Of a stretch of 64,000 bases of DNA, positions 3,891-11,151 are shown piece by piece (the first letter of the stretch is position 1; every line of letters begins with the position of its first letter). The stretch covers positions 5,889 to 69,888 of the forward strand of contig JBBISP010000005.1 of assembly GCA_037441185.1 (NCBI GenBank). The letters are read 5' to 3'. The translations under genes were made by a program, and so were the position numbers. Under the pieces are notes generated by a model. It had not been told where the DNA came from and did no database searches. It saw nothing but the letters and a program-made list of their open reading frames with translations. This stretch comes from Nitrospirota bacterium (lineage in GTDB: Bacteria; Nitrospirota; Thermodesulfovibrionia; Thermodesulfovibrionales; Dissulfurispiraceae).

Positions 3891-4679
3891 TTATTTCATT
3901 TCCTGAACGGGCTTATTAGATGGATACATAAGTATTATGCTTATCCTCCTGTTTTTTGGATCATTAGGATTGTCCTTTACAAAGGGTTCTGTGGCTGCAT
4001 AACCAGCTACCCTCGAAAGTCTGTCGGGATTTAGTCCGTTATTTTCGAGCTCCCTTCTTGCAGCAGATGCCCTGTCTGTTGATAGTTCCCAATTGGTATA
4101 TTTATTTGACGAATAACTAATAGCGTCTGTATGTCCCTCGATAGATACTTTGTTTTCAATGCCCTTCACATTTTCTGCTATAACATTCAATATCTTTTTG
4201 GCATTTGAACTTAAATTTGCGCTGCCGAGGGCAAACAACGGATTGCCTTCTTTGTCAACCATCTGTATCCTCACGCCTCCTTCAAACATATCAACAATTA
4301 TCTGATCCTTGACATCAGCTAATTTTGCTTCTATCTCCCTTTTGAGCATTTCTCTTAAATCCTCCTTGCTCATAATATCCGAATTGCTTTCACCAAATTC
4401 CTGCGGCACCTTAGACGACTCCCCGCCAGACTCCTTCATTATTTCGGAATTATCCTCCATAAAAGAAGACCCGCTCTGGTCAAAGAGGCTGAAGTGTTTA
4501 TAATATGCCGCAATCCTCGCCCTCTTCTCTGGAGATACCATAGTTACAAGCCACATGACAAGGAAAAATGCCATCAGAGCTGTAACAAAATCTGCAAACG
4601 CTACTTTCCAGCTTCCACCGTGATGGCCTGCAGCAGATTGTTTTTTAATCTTTTTAATAATAATCTTCTGCTCTTTCAC
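3891..4679 (-). CDS. motB: Flagellar stator protein MotB (stator set 1)
   Basis: Single TM segment with the conserved Asp (WKVAFADFVTALMAFFLVMW) and a C-terminal OmpA-like peptidoglycan-binding domain (IEGHTD...NWELSTDRASAARR...NRRISI). ATGA overlap with motA. Confidence 0.9.
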   Translation of the reverse strand: MKEQKIIIKKIKKQSAAGHHGGSWKVAFADFVTALMAFFLVMWLVTMVSPEKRARIAAYYKHFSLFDQSGSSFMEDNSEIMKESGGESSKVPQEFGESNSDIMSKEDLREMLKREIEAKLADVKDQIIVDMFEGGVRIQMVDKEGNPLFALGSANLSSNAKKILNVIAENVKGIENKVSIEGHTDAISYSSNKYTNWELSTDRASAARRELENNGLNPDRLSRVAGYAATEPFVKDNPNDPKNRRISIILMYPSNKPVQEMK

Positions 4680-5530
4680 TTTGCCTTTTTCATCTCTTTC
4701 TCGAGATCTTCAAAGGATGGTTTGCATTCGCCTGAAATAGCCCTTCTGGCGAACTCAACCGCCATCTGGGGCGCAGCGCCGCCAACAAATGCCACAAGAG
4801 CCACCTTTATGACCTGAAGATATGCGGTATTTTCTCTTGATCTGTGTTCCATATTAGCTGCTATAGGGCCAACAAATCCGTAGCACATCATTACCCCAAG
4901 GAATGTTCCAACAAGAGCATGGGCAACGCTATAGCCAATCACAGCAGGGGGTTGATCAATCTTGCCCATTGTAATAACGATTCCCAGAACTGCAGCAACA
5001 ATTCCAAGACCAGGCAGGCCGTCAGCTACTTTGGAGACACTATGAGACGGTATCATTGATTCATGATGATGCGCTTCTATCTCAAGATCCAATAAGCTGT
5101 CAAGCTCATGCGGCGGAACATTTGTTGACACCATTACCTTAAGATTGTCACATATAAAATTAACAGCATGATGATTCTTCATAACACCGCTGTGCTTATT
5201 GAAGATGCCGCTCTTATATGGGTTTTCTATATCTGCTTCTATTGATATAAGCCCCTCTTTCCTGATCTTAGAAAATATCCTGTAAAGAAGTGAAAGAATA
5301 TCCAGATAATCTGCCTTGCTATATCCCTTTGAGCTGATAATTAATGGCAACTCCTTAAAAACTGCTGATATGACCTTTGGAGGAGAAGCTATAAAAAATG
5401 CGCCTGCAGCGGCTCCAAAAATAACTATAAACTCTGCAGGCACAAAAAGAACATGGAGGTTGCCGCCTGCCATTAAAAACCCTCCTATAACAGCGCCCAA
5501 AACAACGAATATGCCTATAATTACAAACAT
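4676..5530 (-). CDS. motA: Flagellar stator protein MotA (long type, stator set 1)
   Basis: 284 aa, four TM segments with a large cytoplasmic loop. MotA/TolQ/ExbB channel signature PGLGIVAAVLGIVITMG. Confidence 0.92.
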   Translation of the reverse strand: MFVIIGIFVVLGAVIGGFLMAGGNLHVLFVPAEFIVIFGAAAGAFFIASPPKVISAVFKELPLIISSKGYSKADYLDILSLLYRIFSKIRKEGLISIEADIENPYKSGIFNKHSGVMKNHHAVNFICDNLKVMVSTNVPPHELDSLLDLEIEAHHHESMIPSHSVSKVADGLPGLGIVAAVLGIVITMGKIDQPPAVIGYSVAHALVGTFLGVMMCYGFVGPIAANMEHRSRENTAYLQVIKVALVAFVGGAAPQMAVEFARRAISGECKPSFEDLEKEMKKAK

Positions 5531-5539
5531 CTTTATCCC

Positions 5540-6625
5540 TCATGCCCCTGCATTTGCAGGCAGGTTAATTGTAAATGTTGTCCCTTCGTTCTCTTTGCTC
5601 TCAACATTTATTGTTCCTCCATGTTCAGCAATTATGCTGTAAGCTACTGAAAGTCCAAGCCCTGTGCCTTTGTTAACAGGCTTGGTGGTAAAGAATGGGT
5701 CAAATATTGTCGTAAGATCTTTATCCTGAATGCCAATGCCGTTGTCAGAGATTTTTACTATTATTTTCTTATTATCATTATCATACTGTGTAAAAATAAC
5801 AATTCTGCCGTCTTCTTTTTTTTCTATTACAGCATCCTCTGCATTCAATATTATATTCATAATTACCTGCTGCATTTGCTGCATATCAAGATATGCAAAT
5901 GGGATATTGCTGTCAAAATTCTTTACAACTTCGATATTGTTTGTCCTTAGCCTGTATGCCCTCAGGTCAAGAGTGCTTTCAATAATGCTGTTTATATTCG
6001 CAATGCCCTTCTGCGGCGCCTGCTGCCGAGCAAAACAGAGAAGGCTTTCCACTATCTTTTTGCATCTTTCAGCCGCTGTATGTATTTTTTTCAGTTCACT
6101 TTTTATAGACTCATTTTTTACCTTCATGTCGAGCAGTTCCGTATATCCCAGTATCCCGGTAAGAGGATTATTGATTTCATGCGCAACCCCTGATACAAGC
6201 AGTCCAAGAGATATGAGTTTATCTGAATGATAAAGCTTGTCCCGCAATCTTTTGATCTCAGTGACATCCTGCATAATGCATATAAACTCCCTGTCATCTT
6301 TCGTCATAGCTGAAAATACGCTGAGTATATAAGTCCTGTCAGCTATCTGGACTTCATCAGACACAGGCATTCCTGATGCAATTGCGGTCTTTATCATACT
6401 GTCTCTATGCGGCACATCCATTCCGCAGAGTTCATGTAAGTTCATGCCAACAATCTCACGAGGATGTTTATTAAACCTCTGGGCAAAGGATTTATTGGCC
6501 TTCACAATAACGCCTTTTGCATTTATAACAAAAATATAATTCGTTATTGCATCGATTATTGCGCGCCACTTCTTTTGACTTTCGAGTATTCCTTCCATAT
6601 ACATCTCTTTTACCTGTTCAATCAT
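5540..6625 (-). CDS. Cytoplasmic PAS-domain sensor histidine kinase
   Basis: No TM segment. PAS-like N-terminus, H-box VSGVAHEINNPLTGILGY, and HATPase N/G boxes (NAEDA, DNGIGI, GTGLGLS). Sits between the two stator pairs. Confidence 0.85.
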   Translation of the reverse strand: MIEQVKEMYMEGILESQKKWRAIIDAITNYIFVINAKGVIVKANKSFAQRFNKHPREIVGMNLHELCGMDVPHRDSMIKTAIASGMPVSDEVQIADRTYILSVFSAMTKDDREFICIMQDVTEIKRLRDKLYHSDKLISLGLLVSGVAHEINNPLTGILGYTELLDMKVKNESIKSELKKIHTAAERCKKIVESLLCFARQQAPQKGIANINSIIESTLDLRAYRLRTNNIEVVKNFDSNIPFAYLDMQQMQQVIMNIILNAEDAVIEKKEDGRIVIFTQYDNDNKKIIVKISDNGIGIQDKDLTTIFDPFFTTKPVNKGTGLGLSVAYSIIAEHGGTINVESKENEGTTFTINLPANAGA

Positions 6626-6630
6626 CTATC

Positions 6631-10323: not shown

Positions 10324-10894
10324 ATCCCTTGACCATCCTTTCCTTCAGCATTTCTGTTTCCTTTGGCGTAAAAACATCCATTGTCTTTAATTTCTCCATC
10401 CTATCTATCCAGCCTGCTACTATCTCAGGATTATTGCTTTCAGAAACAGCATTTATCACTCTCAGGTCTCTGTAAGTATCCCTGATGTGCCTTCTCAGAT
10501 CCCTGTTTCTGTTTATTAAATCTGCTCTTTCATATGCCCTCTCAGCAATAATAACTATTTCCTGAATGTTAAATGGCTTTGTTAAATAATCATATGCGCC
10601 TTCTTTAATTGCCTCAATCGCAGTGTCAAGGGTTCCATATGCAGTAAGGATAACTACGGCTGTATCAGGATTGTTTTTAACAGAATGTTTAAGCACATCC
10701 ATACCGCTGGCTCCAGGCATTCTTAGATCTGTTATAACAAGATCAATATCCTCAATATCAAGAATCTGTATGGCAGCCAGTCCATTATAAGCCGATATTA
10801 TGCTGTATCCCTCTCTCTGAAGCGATAAACTAACAACATCACGCGCTATCTCGTCATCATCCACAACAAGTATTTTAAAATCTCTCTTTTCCAT
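10310..10894 (-). CDS. Response regulator: receiver domain plus an uncharacterised ~70-aa C-terminal extension
   Basis: REC motifs ILVVDDDE, ITDLRMPGASGMD and LTKPF. I do not recognise the C-terminal region. Confidence 0.85.
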   Translation of the reverse strand: MEKRDFKILVVDDDEIARDVVSLSLQREGYSIISAYNGLAAIQILDIEDIDLVITDLRMPGASGMDVLKHSVKNNPDTAVVILTAYGTLDTAIEAIKEGAYDYLTKPFNIQEIVIIAERAYERADLINRNRDLRRHIRDTYRDLRVINAVSESNNPEIVAGWIDRMEKLKTMDVFTPKETEMLKERMVKGYGER

Positions 10895-10895
10895 T

Positions 10896-11093
10896 TTATT
10901 TAACTTCCCTTATCGTTTCTAATACCTCTTTTTTGGCATCCTCCATTACTCTCATCTTTTTTGCCTTTATAGAAATGAATACTGTATCCTGCGGATATTC
11001 CTGTTCTTTTTCAAGGATATCAGAGGTCTTAAATTTAGAGACCCTATTGTAAACATGTATTACATTGTCGATTAGAGATGGCAGGATAGTCAT
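10896..11093 (-). CDS. Hypothetical 65-aa protein, first gene of the sigma-28-driven stator-control operon
   Basis: Strong RBS AAGGAGG 7 nt upstream of the ATG. Its stop abuts the next start. It lies directly downstream of a sigma-28-type promoter. No family recognised. Confidence 0.55.
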   Translation of the reverse strand: MTILPSLIDNVIHVYNRVSKFKTSDILEKEQEYPQDTVFISIKAKKMRVMEDAKKEVLETIREVK

Positions 11094-11123
11094 CGCAAGC
11101 CTCCTTATCTCATTTTTGATTTC

Positions 11124-11151
11124 TTATCGGAAAATTTTTAGATAAACTTTA
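11124..11151 (-). promoter_or_regulatory. Sigma-28 (FliA)-type promoter
   Basis: The minus strand reads TAAAGTTT-N12-TCCGATAA (consensus TAAAGTTT-N11-GCCGATAA). The spacer is 1 nt longer than ideal. Located between the fliS stop and the 65-aa ORF. Confidence 0.55.

What the first reader, a model, noticed from the sequence alone, without database searches (positions are those of the whole stretch)
3891..11151. Single sigma-28 operon links a two-component system, an HD-GYP phosphodiesterase and a YcgR-like PilZ protein to two separate stator sets
Nine co-directional genes run from a sigma-28-type promoter (11124..11151) to the motB stop at 3891.
- The gaps or overlaps between them are never more than about 14 nt.
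- The gene order is: 65-aa ORF, REC-only regulator with an unknown tail, REC-GAF-HD-GYP, PilZ (RRQYFR and NISASG motifs), short-type MotA2/MotB2, cytoplasmic PAS histidine kinase, long-type MotA1/MotB1.
- The PilZ stop and the MotA2 start share a nucleotide (TAATG).

Established knowledge:
- YcgR and MotI-type PilZ proteins bind c-di-GMP and brake or declutch the motor through MotA.
- HD-GYP domains hydrolyse c-di-GMP.
- Dual-stator motors exist in Bacillus, Shewanella and Pseudomonas.

Inference: this is a self-contained, phosphorylation-gated local c-di-GMP circuit that controls braking or stator choice. I do not know of a described system with all these parts in one transcription unit between two stator pairs.
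Basis: partly seen in the sequence, partly recalled or inferred. Interest (0 to 1): 0.72.

Follow-up and report, generated by a model that had tools for sequence, protein, structure and literature searches.

The report
Stator operon with built-in c-di-GMP sensor
A late flagellar operon, conserved across the Thermodesulfovibrio-like Nitrospirota, encodes two flagellar stator sets together with a c-di-GMP receptor, a c-di-GMP-degrading enzyme and a two-component system; it is an undescribed, compact variant of the known c-di-GMP motor-brake logic, not a new kind of system.

Summary
Nine co-directional minus-strand genes (11093 to 3891) lie behind a sigma-28-type motif, and no junction exceeds a 14-nt overlap or a 9-nt gap. 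The order is: 65-aa ORF, REC plus helical tail, REC-GAF-HD-GYP, PilZ, MotC/D-like stator, soluble PAS kinase, MotA/B-type stator.

The order is not chance. All nine genes recur in the same order in at least 14 of 64 related genomes (mostly Nitrospirota/Thermodesulfovibrionales MAGs), and the promoter motif is conserved. The invariant core is the PilZ gene directly upstream of a motA (63 of 64 loci).

- The PilZ model has the two-barrel MotI/YcgR architecture, intact RxxxR and NxSxxG motifs, and a tPilZ-like inserted helix.
- The HD-GYP metal ligands and GYP motif are fully conserved.

The module is not self-contained: no GGDEF cyclase occurs in the window or within 10 kb in any relative. It is a receptor plus a gated sink, like FliA-controlled YcgR and PdeH in E. 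coli. Brake, stator selector and FlgX-like stator scaffold cannot be told apart here. PilZ stays linked to MotA1 where MotA2B2, HD-GYP and the kinase are absent.

Verdict: a new variant of a known kind, of moderate interest.

The parts
11125..11151 (-). Sigma-28 (FliA)-type promoter motif TAAAGTTT-N12-TCCGATA, 31 nt upstream of the orf65 start codon
   Evidence: 3 matches in the window against 0.52 expected, all before late flagellar genes; the same motif lies a few tens of nt (mostly 45-56) upstream of orf65 in at least 13 related loci; in other loci it precedes REC194, fliS or fliC.
10896..11093 (-). orf65: a conserved 65-aa protein of unknown function and the first gene of the unit
   Evidence: No Pfam or NCBIfam hit. 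Homologues occupy the same position in 28 loci, with a conserved D-x-V-x-I-S-x-E-A-K-K segment. Resemblance to FlgM is weak and inconclusive (hhalign probability 15%).
10310..10894 (-). REC194: a receiver domain with a long alpha-5 helix and a small, conserved helical C-terminal module (no known output domain)
   Evidence: Pfam Response_reg 1.6e-29. The receiver is NtrC/AtoC-like. AF2 model pLDDT 83, with helices 110-150, 156-171 and 177-188. Foldseek finds NtrC1/RssB/DctD-type receivers and nothing for the tail. The tail is highly conserved.
8839..10323 (-). REC-GAF-HD-GYP response regulator, a predicted c-di-GMP phosphodiesterase
   Evidence: Pfam HD_5 2.1e-35, Response_reg 1e-26, GAF 1.8e-5. 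The HD, HH-E-x-x-D-G-x-GYP, D441 and RPYR residues and the REC D10/D11/D55/T83/K105 residues are conserved in 30 orthologues.
8082..8849 (-). PilZ protein (255 aa): an N-terminal beta-barrel plus a PilZ barrel carrying an inserted long helix and a C-terminal helix. RRQYFR lies in the linker; NISASG lies on the barrel.
   Evidence: Pfam PilZ 1e-7, C-terminal part only. R79, R83, S166 and G169 are invariant. AF2 pLDDT 81. Foldseek: MotI 5vx6 E=6e-10, then PlzD, tPilZ XCC6012, YcgR, MrkH, PP4397. The stop codon overlaps the MotA2 start (TAATG).
7333..8082 (-). MotA2: short-type stator A subunit of the MotC type
   Evidence: NCBIfam PRK09109 285.9 bits, above the 237 cutoff. Pfam MotA_ExbB and MotA_N. 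R89/R90 and E97 charged pair. Nearest solved structure is Paenibacillus TCA20 MotA.
6631..7326 (-). MotB2: stator B subunit, MotD-like
   Evidence: Pfam MotB_plug and OmpA. Best NCBIfam model is MotD PRK09038, 231.5 bits, below the 283 cutoff. The channel Asp is present in YAD24F.
5540..6625 (-). Soluble PAS-HisKA-HATPase histidine kinase
   Evidence: Pfam PAS_9, HisKA and HATPase_c. No hydrophobic segment. Best NCBIfam similarity is to AtoS/NtrB-type kinases, below cutoff. The sensor region varies from about 360 to 640 aa among relatives.
4676..5530 (-). MotA1: long-type stator A subunit of the E. coli MotA type
   Evidence: NCBIfam TIGR03818 391.6 bits, above the 303.8 cutoff. Pfam MotA_N and MotA_ExbB. 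R90 and E98 are present.
3891..4679 (-). MotB1: stator B subunit (GTG start, 4-nt overlap with motA1) and the last gene of the unit
   Evidence: Pfam MotB_plug and OmpA. Best NCBIfam model is MotB PRK09041, 251.6 bits, below the 277 cutoff. Channel Asp in FAD30F. It converges on an ATP-dependent DNA ligase gene that ends at 3881.

Best explanation
This is a late (sigma-28-dependent) flagellar operon of a Thermodesulfovibrionales-type Nitrospirota bacterium. It makes both stator sets (MotAB-type and MotCD-type) together with their own c-di-GMP control module.

Proposed mechanism:
1. The PilZ protein is a YcgR/MotI-architecture c-di-GMP receptor. It is produced stoichiometrically with the stator, being translationally coupled to motA2.
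2. When loaded with c-di-GMP it binds the cytoplasmic face of the MotA-type subunit and reduces or uncouples torque.
3. The REC-GAF-HD-GYP enzyme is a motor-associated c-di-GMP sink. Its activity is set by phosphorylation from the soluble PAS kinase, which also targets REC194.
4. A cytoplasmic signal therefore decides whether newly built motors stay unbraked.

Functionally this is the FliA-controlled YcgR + PdeH pair of E. coli, compacted into the stator operon. The PDE is an HD-GYP rather than an EAL enzyme, it is gated by a two-component system, and there are two stator types as in Pseudomonas.

Shown here: gene content, order, motif conservation, fold class and promoter conservation.
Inferred only: ligand binding, the MotA contact, the direction of the effect, phosphotransfer and the single transcript.
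For: - Junctions are no larger than a 14-nt overlap or a 9-nt gap. Every terminator-like hit on this strand lies inside a coding sequence.
- The sigma-28 motif is conserved upstream of orthologous operons, and FliA and FlgM are encoded in the window.
- The PilZ fold matches MotI, PlzD, YcgR and PP4397 over its whole length. RxxxR lies in the interdomain linker, and the motif residues are invariant in the family.
- PilZ is directly upstream of motA in 63 of 64 loci. Its stop overlaps the motA2 start in 23 of 41 loci and lies within 6 nt in 33 of 41. Even short, divergent family members precede motA-motB.
- The HD-GYP catalytic and REC phospho-acceptor residues are conserved.
- MotA2 meets the MotC-type model and MotA1 meets the MotA1 model.
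- In the clade that lost the kinase, HD-GYP and MotA2B2, REC194 lost its phospho-acceptor Asp in 4 of 5 scorable loci.
- Precedents: ycgR and yhjH both have FliA promoters (PMC4183435); FlgZ binds MotC, and the PilZ gene motL lies beside motAB (PMC8203827); YcgR-like genes are enriched near motA/motB (PMC11800159).
Against: - Nothing biochemical was tested.
- No cyclase is linked, so the input side of the c-di-GMP signal is unknown.
- The PilZ family has no sequence-level relative in the PDB and no hit to the Pfam or NCBIfam YcgR/PilZN models.
- The helix inserted between beta-1 and beta-2 resembles tPilZ proteins. One of these, FlgX, is a structural stator stabiliser and not a brake (PMC11725899).
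- HD-GYP is truncated or absent in some otherwise full loci (L020, L030, L032, L039), so the PDE is dispensable.
- In some relatives the kinase-to-motA1 gap is 60-290 nt, so motA1B1 may have its own promoter there.
- Promoters inside coding sequences cannot be excluded.
Confidence: 0.5

Rival explanations
1. The PilZ protein is a structural or chaperone-like stator accessory subunit, comparable to C. jejuni FlgX. It sits under the MotA pentamer and is needed to assemble or stabilise stators. c-di-GMP at most modulates this positive role, and the HD-GYP/two-component genes tune it.
For: - PilZ is an obligate neighbour of motA in 63 of 64 loci and is often translationally coupled to it, which suggests fixed stoichiometry.
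- The linkage survives loss of every signalling gene, and even outside flagellar clusters.
- A long helix is inserted between beta-1 and beta-2, and there is a C-terminal helix. XCC6012 tPilZ matches with target TM 0.57-0.60 over 165-186 alignment columns.
- Some family members lack the N-terminal barrel altogether.
- FlgX is a tPilZ protein that binds MotA and stabilises the stator ring (PMC11725899).
Against: - Unlike FlgX, the RxxxR and (D/N)xSxxG residues are invariant across the family. That argues ligand binding is under selection.
- A c-di-GMP phosphodiesterase is co-encoded in most loci.
- Only one long inserted helix is predicted in the window protein, where tPilZ has two.
- Pfam tPilZ matches only 1 of 23 members, at E=0.025.
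- The best whole-length structural match is the clutch protein MotI.
Confidence: 0.25
2. The module is a stator selector. c-di-GMP-bound PilZ specifically sequesters the MotC/D-like MotA2B2 units, as FlgZ does with MotC in P. aeruginosa. The PAS kinase / HD-GYP branch therefore switches the motor between MotA2B2 and MotA1B1 rather than simply braking it.
For: - MotA2 meets the MotC-type NCBIfam model, and MotB2 is closest to MotD.
- The PilZ stop overlaps or abuts the motA2 start in most loci. In contrast, PilZ-motA1 junctions always have a 6-178-nt gap.
- HD-GYP co-occurs with MotA2B2. HD-GYP orthologues sit upstream of PilZ only in loci that also carry MotA2B2, except L049.
- There is a FlgZ-MotC precedent (cited in PMC8203827 and PMC11725899).
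Against: - PilZ is retained directly upstream of motA1 in 22 loci without MotA2B2, and upstream of kinase-motA1 in L049. It is therefore not MotA2-specific by necessity.
- The crude NJ tree suggests these forms arose by loss from the full type.
- No data exist on differential binding or on the ion or torque properties of the two stators.
Confidence: 0.15
3. The clustering reflects only co-expression of late flagellar genes. The two-component proteins (the PAS kinase and REC194) and the HD-GYP act on global targets unrelated to the neighbouring stators. REC194, not PilZ, may be the motor-directed output, acting as a CheY-like effector.
For: - REC194 is more conserved than PilZ: about 60-67% identity against 38-50%.
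- It has a conserved output tail of unknown function.
- It remains next to PilZ in the minimal loci.
- The kinase sensor region varies widely between lineages.
- c-di-GMP is diffusible, and the cyclases are unlinked.
Against: - The gene order is conserved with overlapping reading frames across a whole class-level lineage. That is hard to explain by co-expression alone.
- REC194 lacks the Cle-type c-di-GMP motif DRR...[R/K]RxxD (PMC7382256).
- REC194 has no detectable DNA-binding or FliM-binding domain.
- Loss of the kinase, HD-GYP and MotA2B2 coincides with loss of the REC194 phospho-acceptor residue.
Confidence: 0.1

Closest known systems
E. coli/Salmonella YcgR brake with PdeH (YhjH) phosphodiesterase, both FliA (class 3) controlled
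   Same: A PilZN-PilZ-architecture c-di-GMP receptor and a c-di-GMP phosphodiesterase are co-expressed with late flagellar genes from sigma-28 promoters (PMC4183435). The receptor acts on MotA/FliG. The cyclases are encoded elsewhere.
   Different: - Here the receptor, the PDE and both stators lie in one tightly packed unit.
- The PDE is an HD-GYP with REC and GAF domains, not a stand-alone EAL.
- A kinase and a second REC protein are included.
- The PilZ protein has an inserted helix and no detectable sequence match to the YcgR_N/PilZN models.
Pseudomonas aeruginosa FlgZ with the dual stators MotAB/MotCD
   Same: There are two stator sets of MotA/B and MotC/D type. A two-domain PilZ protein is structurally similar to the FlgZ homologue PP4397. 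FlgZ binds MotC in a c-di-GMP-dependent way (cited in PMC8203827).
   Different: flgZ is not adjacent to motCD in Pseudomonas. Here the PilZ gene overlaps the motC-like gene. It also stays with motA1 where the MotC/D-like set is absent.
Bacillus subtilis MotI (DgrA/YpfA) clutch
   Same: It is the best structural match to the PilZ model (5vx6, E=6.4e-10, alignment spanning both domains). MotI acts on MotA.
   Different: Sequence identity is only 14-16%. There is no PDB sequence-level hit. The extra helix between beta-1 and beta-2 is absent from MotI. The genomic context differs.
Campylobacter jejuni FlgX / Xanthomonas XCC6012 (tetrameric tPilZ family)
   Same: The PilZ barrel has a helical insertion between beta-1 and beta-2 and a C-terminal helix; XCC6012 matches with target TM 0.57-0.60. 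FlgX binds the cytoplasmic part of MotA (PMC11725899).
   Different: FlgX lacks the c-di-GMP motifs and is structural. This family keeps both motifs invariant and usually has an extra N-terminal barrel. The window protein has one predicted long inserted helix, not two. Oligomeric state is unknown.
Shewanella putrefaciens MotL
   Same: A PilZ-domain c-di-GMP receptor gene lies beside motAB in a flagellar cluster and regulates that motor (PMC8203827).
   Different: MotL is a single-domain PilZ encoded downstream of motB. No PDE, kinase or second stator is in that unit.
Xanthomonas RpfC/RpfG and other REC-HD-GYP response regulators
   Same: A receiver domain is fused to an HD-GYP c-di-GMP phosphodiesterase and presumably controlled by a sensor kinase. 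The catalytic motifs are intact.
   Different: There is an extra GAF domain. The kinase is a soluble PAS protein, not a membrane hybrid kinase. The genes sit inside a stator operon. Phosphotransfer is untested. The comparison with RpfC/RpfG rests on my own knowledge of that system.

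Membership tests
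YcgR/MotI/FlgZ-type (PilZN-PilZ) flagellar c-di-GMP effectors | Two-domain architecture: an N-terminal PilZ-like beta-barrel followed by a C-terminal PilZ barrel | tested here: met
   The AF2 model has barrels at 8-73 and 84-221. Foldseek aligns the whole length to MotI, PlzD, YcgR, MrkH and PP4397, all with probability 1.00.
YcgR/MotI/FlgZ-type (PilZN-PilZ) flagellar c-di-GMP effectors | RxxxR in the interdomain linker and (D/N)xSxxG on the PilZ barrel | tested here: met
   RRQYFR at 78-83 and NISASG at 164-169. R79, R83, S166 and G169 are invariant and N164 is at least 90% conserved in 23 homologues. The motifs are about 80 residues apart, where YcgR has about 30 (the YcgR spacing is from my own knowledge).
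YcgR/MotI/FlgZ-type (PilZN-PilZ) flagellar c-di-GMP effectors | Sequence match to curated YcgR_N / PilZN / YcgR family models | tested here: not met
   Only Pfam PilZ matches (C-terminal part; 23 of 23 members). There is no YcgR-type N-domain hit, no NCBIfam hit and no PDB sequence hit.
YcgR/MotI/FlgZ-type (PilZN-PilZ) flagellar c-di-GMP effectors | Binds c-di-GMP and then MotA and/or FliG | not testable with these tools
   Only genomic linkage to motA (63 of 64 loci) supports a MotA partner.
tPilZ (XCC6012 / FlgX / PA2989) | Two extra long helices between beta-1 and beta-2, and flanking helices | tested here: inconclusive
   One long helix (128-152), a short helix (97-101) and a low-confidence stretch (pLDDT <50 at 111-118) lie between beta-1 and beta-2, with a C-terminal helix at 226-252. 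Some homologues (P0049, P0059, P0066) carry a longer insertion with an apparent second helix. XCC6012 matches with target TM 0.57-0.60.
tPilZ (XCC6012 / FlgX / PA2989) | Match to Pfam tPilZ (PF16823); stable tetramer | tested here: not met
   PF16823 matches 1 of 23 members at E=0.025. Tetramer formation is not testable here.
HD-GYP c-di-GMP phosphodiesterases | HD-GYP domain with metal-binding H/HD/H/HH/D residues and the GYP motif | tested here: met
   Pfam HD_5 2.1e-35. H327, H359-D360, H388, H412-H413, D441, G420-Y421-P422 and R450-P-Y-R453 are invariant in 30 orthologues. Enzyme activity is not testable here.
Phosphorylation-controlled response regulators (both REC proteins) | Acidic pocket, phospho-acceptor Asp, and the conserved Thr and Lys | tested here: met
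   HD-GYP protein: D10/D11, D55, T83, K105. REC194: D12-D14, D56, T84, K106 are invariant in alignment A2. D56 is replaced by A or P in the minimal loci L001, L003, L004 and L019. Phosphotransfer from the PAS kinase is not testable here.
MotC/MotD-type stator (MotA2/MotB2) | Score above the curated cutoff of the MotC-type and MotD models; plug, channel Asp and OmpA-like domain | tested here: inconclusive
   MotA2: PRK09109 285.9 bits, above 237 (met). MotB2: MotD PRK09038 231.5 bits, below 283 (best hit but under the cutoff). MotB_plug, OmpA and D24 are present.
MotA/MotB-type stator (MotA1/MotB1) | Score above the curated cutoff; R90/E98-type charged pair; channel Asp | tested here: met
   MotA1: TIGR03818 391.6 bits, above 303.8. 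MotB1: best hit PRK09041 251.6 bits, below 277. R90 and E98 in MotA1 and D30 in MotB1 are present.
Sigma-28 (FliA) class-3 promoters | TAAA-N15/16-GCCGATAA-like motif in the right place, with the cognate sigma and anti-sigma factors present | tested here: met
   TAAAGTTT-N12-TCCGATA lies 31 nt before orf65. The other two matches in the window precede flagellin and flgM. The motif is conserved in orthologous loci. A FliA-like sigma factor is at 39875-40627 after flhA-flhF-flhG. Actual transcription start sites are not testable here.
Cle-type CheY-like c-di-GMP effectors (considered for REC194) | C-terminal Arg-rich peptide with DRR and [R/K]RxxD about 11 residues apart (PMC7382256) | tested here: not met
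   The REC194 tail consensus is NRELxKHLRDTYRDxExLK... It has no DRR...[R/K]RxxD pair and is predicted helical rather than disordered.

The most novel reading that the evidence does not exclude
The PilZ protein is a dedicated, stoichiometric c-di-GMP-sensing subunit of the stator complex. It would be an evolutionary intermediate between regulatory YcgR/MotI brakes and the structural tPilZ scaffold FlgX. It sits under MotA pentamers and, depending on a motor-local c-di-GMP level set by a kinase-gated HD-GYP, decides which of two stator types engages the rotor. REC194 would be a second, phosphorylation-dependent input acting on the same complex through its conserved helical tail.
Probability: 0.2. 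Interest if true: 0.7.

Novelty: new variant of a known kind. Interest (0 to 1): 0.5.

Why it matters
Whether PilZ proteins brake, declutch, select or stabilise stators is still debated (YcgR, MotI, FlgZ, FlgX). In this lineage evolution has hard-wired the receptor to the stator genes. Natural variants exist with and without the second stator, the PDE, the kinase, the N-terminal PilZ domain and the REC phospho-acceptor.

That gives a ready-made comparative series for asking which partner PilZ binds and what the inserted helix does. It may also link the regulatory and structural PilZ roles.

It is also a clear case of a two-component-gated HD-GYP sitting inside a motor operon, which would be a candidate for local c-di-GMP signalling.

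All the parts and the overall logic are known, however, and the organisms are hard to manipulate. The finding is therefore useful rather than surprising.

Tried and rejected
- A PDB sequence search with the PilZ family profile gave only chance-level hits.
- Pfam and NCBIfam gave nothing for orf65 or for the REC194 tail. Foldseek of the REC194 model matched only receiver domains.
- orf65 as a FlgM paralogue: hhalign probability 15% over 17 columns, not accepted.
- REC194 as a Cle-type c-di-GMP-binding CheY: the motif is absent, rejected (PMC7382256).
- A linked diguanylate cyclase: no GG[DE]EF ORF in the window or in the 64 loci.
- A c-di-GMP riboswitch or other RNA element: no Rfam family reached its gathering threshold, and there are no tRNAs.
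- Identifying the source genome: exact look-ups of REC194 and MotA2 found no contig on record. The cluster look-up gave no name. The window's species is not among the GTDB representatives recovered; the best PilZ identity was 50%.
- A wider family search with the A1 profile found no remote relatives, only 108 clusters all below E=1e-45.
- A second MotA/B pair in L064 has no PilZ gene upstream, so the linkage is specific to this PilZ family.
- Literature searches for this operon in Thermodesulfovibrio, Magnetobacterium or in general returned no description. The Galperin and Chou PilZ review (PMC6989793) is not held.

Full report
**1. The observation**

The window is a 64-kb flagellar and chemotaxis supercluster, almost entirely on the minus strand. 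Between 11093 and 3891 there are nine co-directional ORFs:

| Gene | Coordinates |
|---|---|
| orf65 | 10896-11093 |
| REC protein, 194 aa (REC194) | 10310-10894 |
| REC-GAF-HD-GYP | 8839-10323 |
| PilZ | 8082-8849 |
| MotA2 | 7333-8082 |
| MotB2 | 6631-7326 |
| PAS-HisKA-HATPase kinase | 5540-6625 |
| MotA1 | 4676-5530 |
| MotB1 | 3891-4679 |

- The PilZ ATG at 8849 is preferred over the one at 8888 because homologues start with MKLNAGE....
- The junctions are +1, -14, -11, -1, +6, +5, +9 and -4 nt. The PilZ stop and MotA2 start share a base (TAATG).
- None of the five non-stator proteins has a hydrophobic segment, so the kinase is cytoplasmic.
- Terminator-like hits on this strand all fall inside coding sequences. 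Their number is close to what shuffled sequence gives: 11 against 6.8 +/- 2.4.

**2. The promoter**

TAAAGTTT-N12-TCCGATA lies at 11125-11151 on the minus strand, in the 64-nt fliS-orf65 spacer.
- The relaxed pattern TAAA-N14-17-CCGATA occurs three times in the window (0.52 expected).
- All three are on the minus strand and intergenic. They precede orf65, the flagellin gene (14350-14375) and flgM-flgN-flgK (19832-19857).
- A FliA-type sigma factor follows flhA-flhF-flhG at 39875-40627. A classical FlgM lies at 19515-19802.
- In related genomes the same motif lies a few tens of nt (mostly 45-56) upstream of orf65 in at least 13 loci.
- Where the upstream genes differ, it lies before REC194 (minimal loci), before fliS, or before fliC when fliS overlaps orf65.

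Sigma-28 control is therefore well supported by conservation. The single transcript remains an inference.

**3. Conservation**

A pattern scan of one genome per GTDB species with the PilZ alignment recovered 64 loci. Nearly all are Nitrospirota/Thermodesulfovibrionales MAGs, including the magnetotactic Magnetobacterium group; a few are labelled Desulfobacterales, Deltaproteobacteria or Thermodesulfobacteriota.

BLASTP of the window proteins against the locus ORFs gives these arrangements:
- All nine genes in the window's order in at least 14 loci, and the eight larger genes in 17.
- A form without the kinase: L023, L026, L036, L044, L046. L043 also lacks the kinase, but no REC194 or HD-GYP gene was detected there.
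- One form without MotA2B2: L049.
- A minimal REC194-PilZ-MotA1-MotB1 form: L001-L004, L006, L019.
- A PilZ-MotA1-MotB1 form in 16 loci (15 from the magnetotactic group plus L048), directly after fliS in L050, L051, L060 and L062.

PilZ is immediately followed by a motA in 63 of 64 loci.
- With MotA2 the stop and start overlap in 23 of 41 loci and lie within 6 nt in 33 of 41.
- With MotA1 there is always a gap of 6-178 nt.

A crude neighbour-joining tree places the full form on most deep branches. The minimal clade is sister to the window's protein, so the reduced forms look like losses.

The family is a tight clade: 108 clusters, all below E=1e-45, with no remote members. Short members lacking the N-terminal barrel still precede motA-motB, once outside any flagellar cluster.

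**4. The parts**

*PilZ*
- Only the C-terminal part matches Pfam PilZ. No PDB chain matches by sequence.
- The AlphaFold2 model (pLDDT 81) shows an N-terminal barrel (8-73), the RRQYFR motif in the linker, and a PilZ barrel (84-221) interrupted by a long helix (128-152) between beta-1 and beta-2. A C-terminal helix follows.
- Foldseek ranks B. subtilis MotI first (E=6e-10). Next come PlzD/VCA0042, the tetrameric tPilZ XCC6012 (target TM 0.57-0.60), YcgR, MrkH and PP4397/FlgZ.
- R79, R83, S166 and G169 are invariant in the family.
- It is therefore YcgR/MotI-like in architecture and motifs. It is not a sequence-level member of the curated YcgR models, and it carries a tPilZ-like insertion.

*HD-GYP*
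- All metal ligands, the GYP motif and the REC phospho-acceptor residues are conserved in 30 orthologues.

*REC194*
- It has an NtrC1/DctD/RssB-like receiver with a long alpha-5 helix and two short conserved helices. No known output domain is detectable.
- It is more conserved than PilZ.
- In the minimal loci L001, L003, L004 and L019 its phospho-acceptor Asp is replaced. This coincides with loss of the kinase, but it is a single evolutionary event.

*Stators*
- MotA2 exceeds the cutoff of the MotC-type model, and MotB2 is closest to MotD.
- MotA1 exceeds the MotA1 model cutoff, and MotB1 is closest to MotB.
- Both pairs keep the plug, the channel Asp, the OmpA-like domain and the R/E charged pair.

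**5. What is missing**

No GG[DE]EF ORF exists in the 64-kb window or within about 10 kb in any of the 64 loci. No c-di-GMP riboswitch or other Rfam family was found. The module therefore has a receptor and a sink but no source. 'Self-contained circuit' is not correct.

**6. Most likely mechanism**

The best-supported reading is a late flagellar operon that delivers stators together with a c-di-GMP receptor acting on MotA. It also delivers a phosphorylation-gated HD-GYP that keeps c-di-GMP low around new motors.

This is the logic of FliA-controlled ycgR and yhjH/pdeH in E. coli (PMC4183435), combined with a Pseudomonas-like MotAB/MotCD pair. In Pseudomonas, FlgZ targets MotC (as summarised in PMC8203827 and PMC11725899).

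- Shown: composition, order, conservation, fold class, motif integrity and promoter conservation.
- Inferred: c-di-GMP binding, the MotA contact, the sign of the effect, kinase-to-REC phosphotransfer and co-transcription.

The main rival is a FlgX-like structural role (PMC11725899). It is favoured by the obligate, often translationally coupled linkage to motA and by the inserted helix. It is disfavoured by the invariant ligand-binding motifs and the co-encoded PDE.

A stator-selector reading is favoured by the tight PilZ-motA2 coupling. It is weakened by retention of PilZ with motA1 alone.

**7. Comparison with the literature, and novelty**

- PilZ-stator gene linkage has precedents: motL lies beside the lateral motAB genes (PMC8203827), and MotA/MotB occur in 202 of 11,980 YcgR-like neighbourhoods (PMC11800159).
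- REC-HD-GYP regulators are well known.
- I found no paper describing this operon or this PilZ family.

It is a new variant of a known kind: a compact, lineage-wide fusion of known modules with an unusual hybrid PilZ protein. Interest is moderate at 0.5. It offers a natural comparative series for the open question of how PilZ proteins act on stators, but nothing here contradicts current understanding.

Noticed in passing
window 10896-11093 (-): orf65 is a real, conserved small gene (28 loci) and the first gene behind the sigma-28 motif. It has a D-x-V-x-I-S-x-E-A-K-K segment reminiscent of the FlgM core. The profile comparison with FlgM is weak (probability 15%).
   Followed up: partly
L001, L003, L004, L019 (REC194 orthologues): In the minimal REC194-PilZ-MotA1-MotB1 loci the receiver has lost its phospho-acceptor Asp (D56 to A or P) and part of the acidic pocket (DDD to ADND). 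The C-terminal tail remains conserved, so this looks like a pseudo-receiver after loss of the kinase.
   Followed up: partly
L010, L014, L016, L065; proteins P0029, P0035, P0036, P0039, P0230-P0237: A subgroup of the PilZ family (about 176-203 aa) lacks the N-terminal barrel entirely, yet still sits directly upstream of motA-motB. In one JGI contig it lies outside any flagellar cluster.
   Followed up: partly
L020 9414-9983; L030, L032, L039: The HD-GYP gene is truncated to the catalytic domain (L020), reduced to a remnant (L032) or absent (L030, L039) in loci that otherwise have the full arrangement. The phosphodiesterase is therefore repeatedly lost.
   Followed up: no
window 7333-8082 (-): The closest solved structure to MotA2 is MotA of Paenibacillus sp. 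TCA20 (9lu9/9lub/9luc, E=5e-59). The ion specificity of either stator set cannot be deduced here.
   Followed up: no
window 33899-35137 (-): A 412-aa protein combines a CheW domain with a CheZ phosphatase domain, just downstream of cheA in the chemotaxis cluster. This domain fusion looks unusual.
   Followed up: no
window 25596-27303 (-): Two tandem HDOD-domain proteins (290 and 274 aa) lie between the flagellar rod genes and the MCP/CheW/CheB genes.
   Followed up: no
window 13286-13312: A strong 12-bp palindromic hairpin (8 G-C pairs) lies between the flagellin gene and flaG. It is a likely attenuator or terminator after fliC.
   Followed up: no
window 3881-3891: motB1 and a convergent ATP-dependent DNA ligase gene (2109-3881, +) end only 9 nt apart. 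This leaves no room for an intergenic terminator.
   Followed up: no
window 38426-39859 (-): A 477-aa HEAT-repeat protein is encoded between the FliA-like sigma factor gene and cheR.
   Followed up: no
L064 1907-3823; L054, L055, L058, L063: The kinase between the two stator sets has a variable sensor region, about 360 aa in the window and about 640 aa elsewhere. In L064 it starts with its own receiver domain, which suggests lineage-specific inputs.
   Followed up: no
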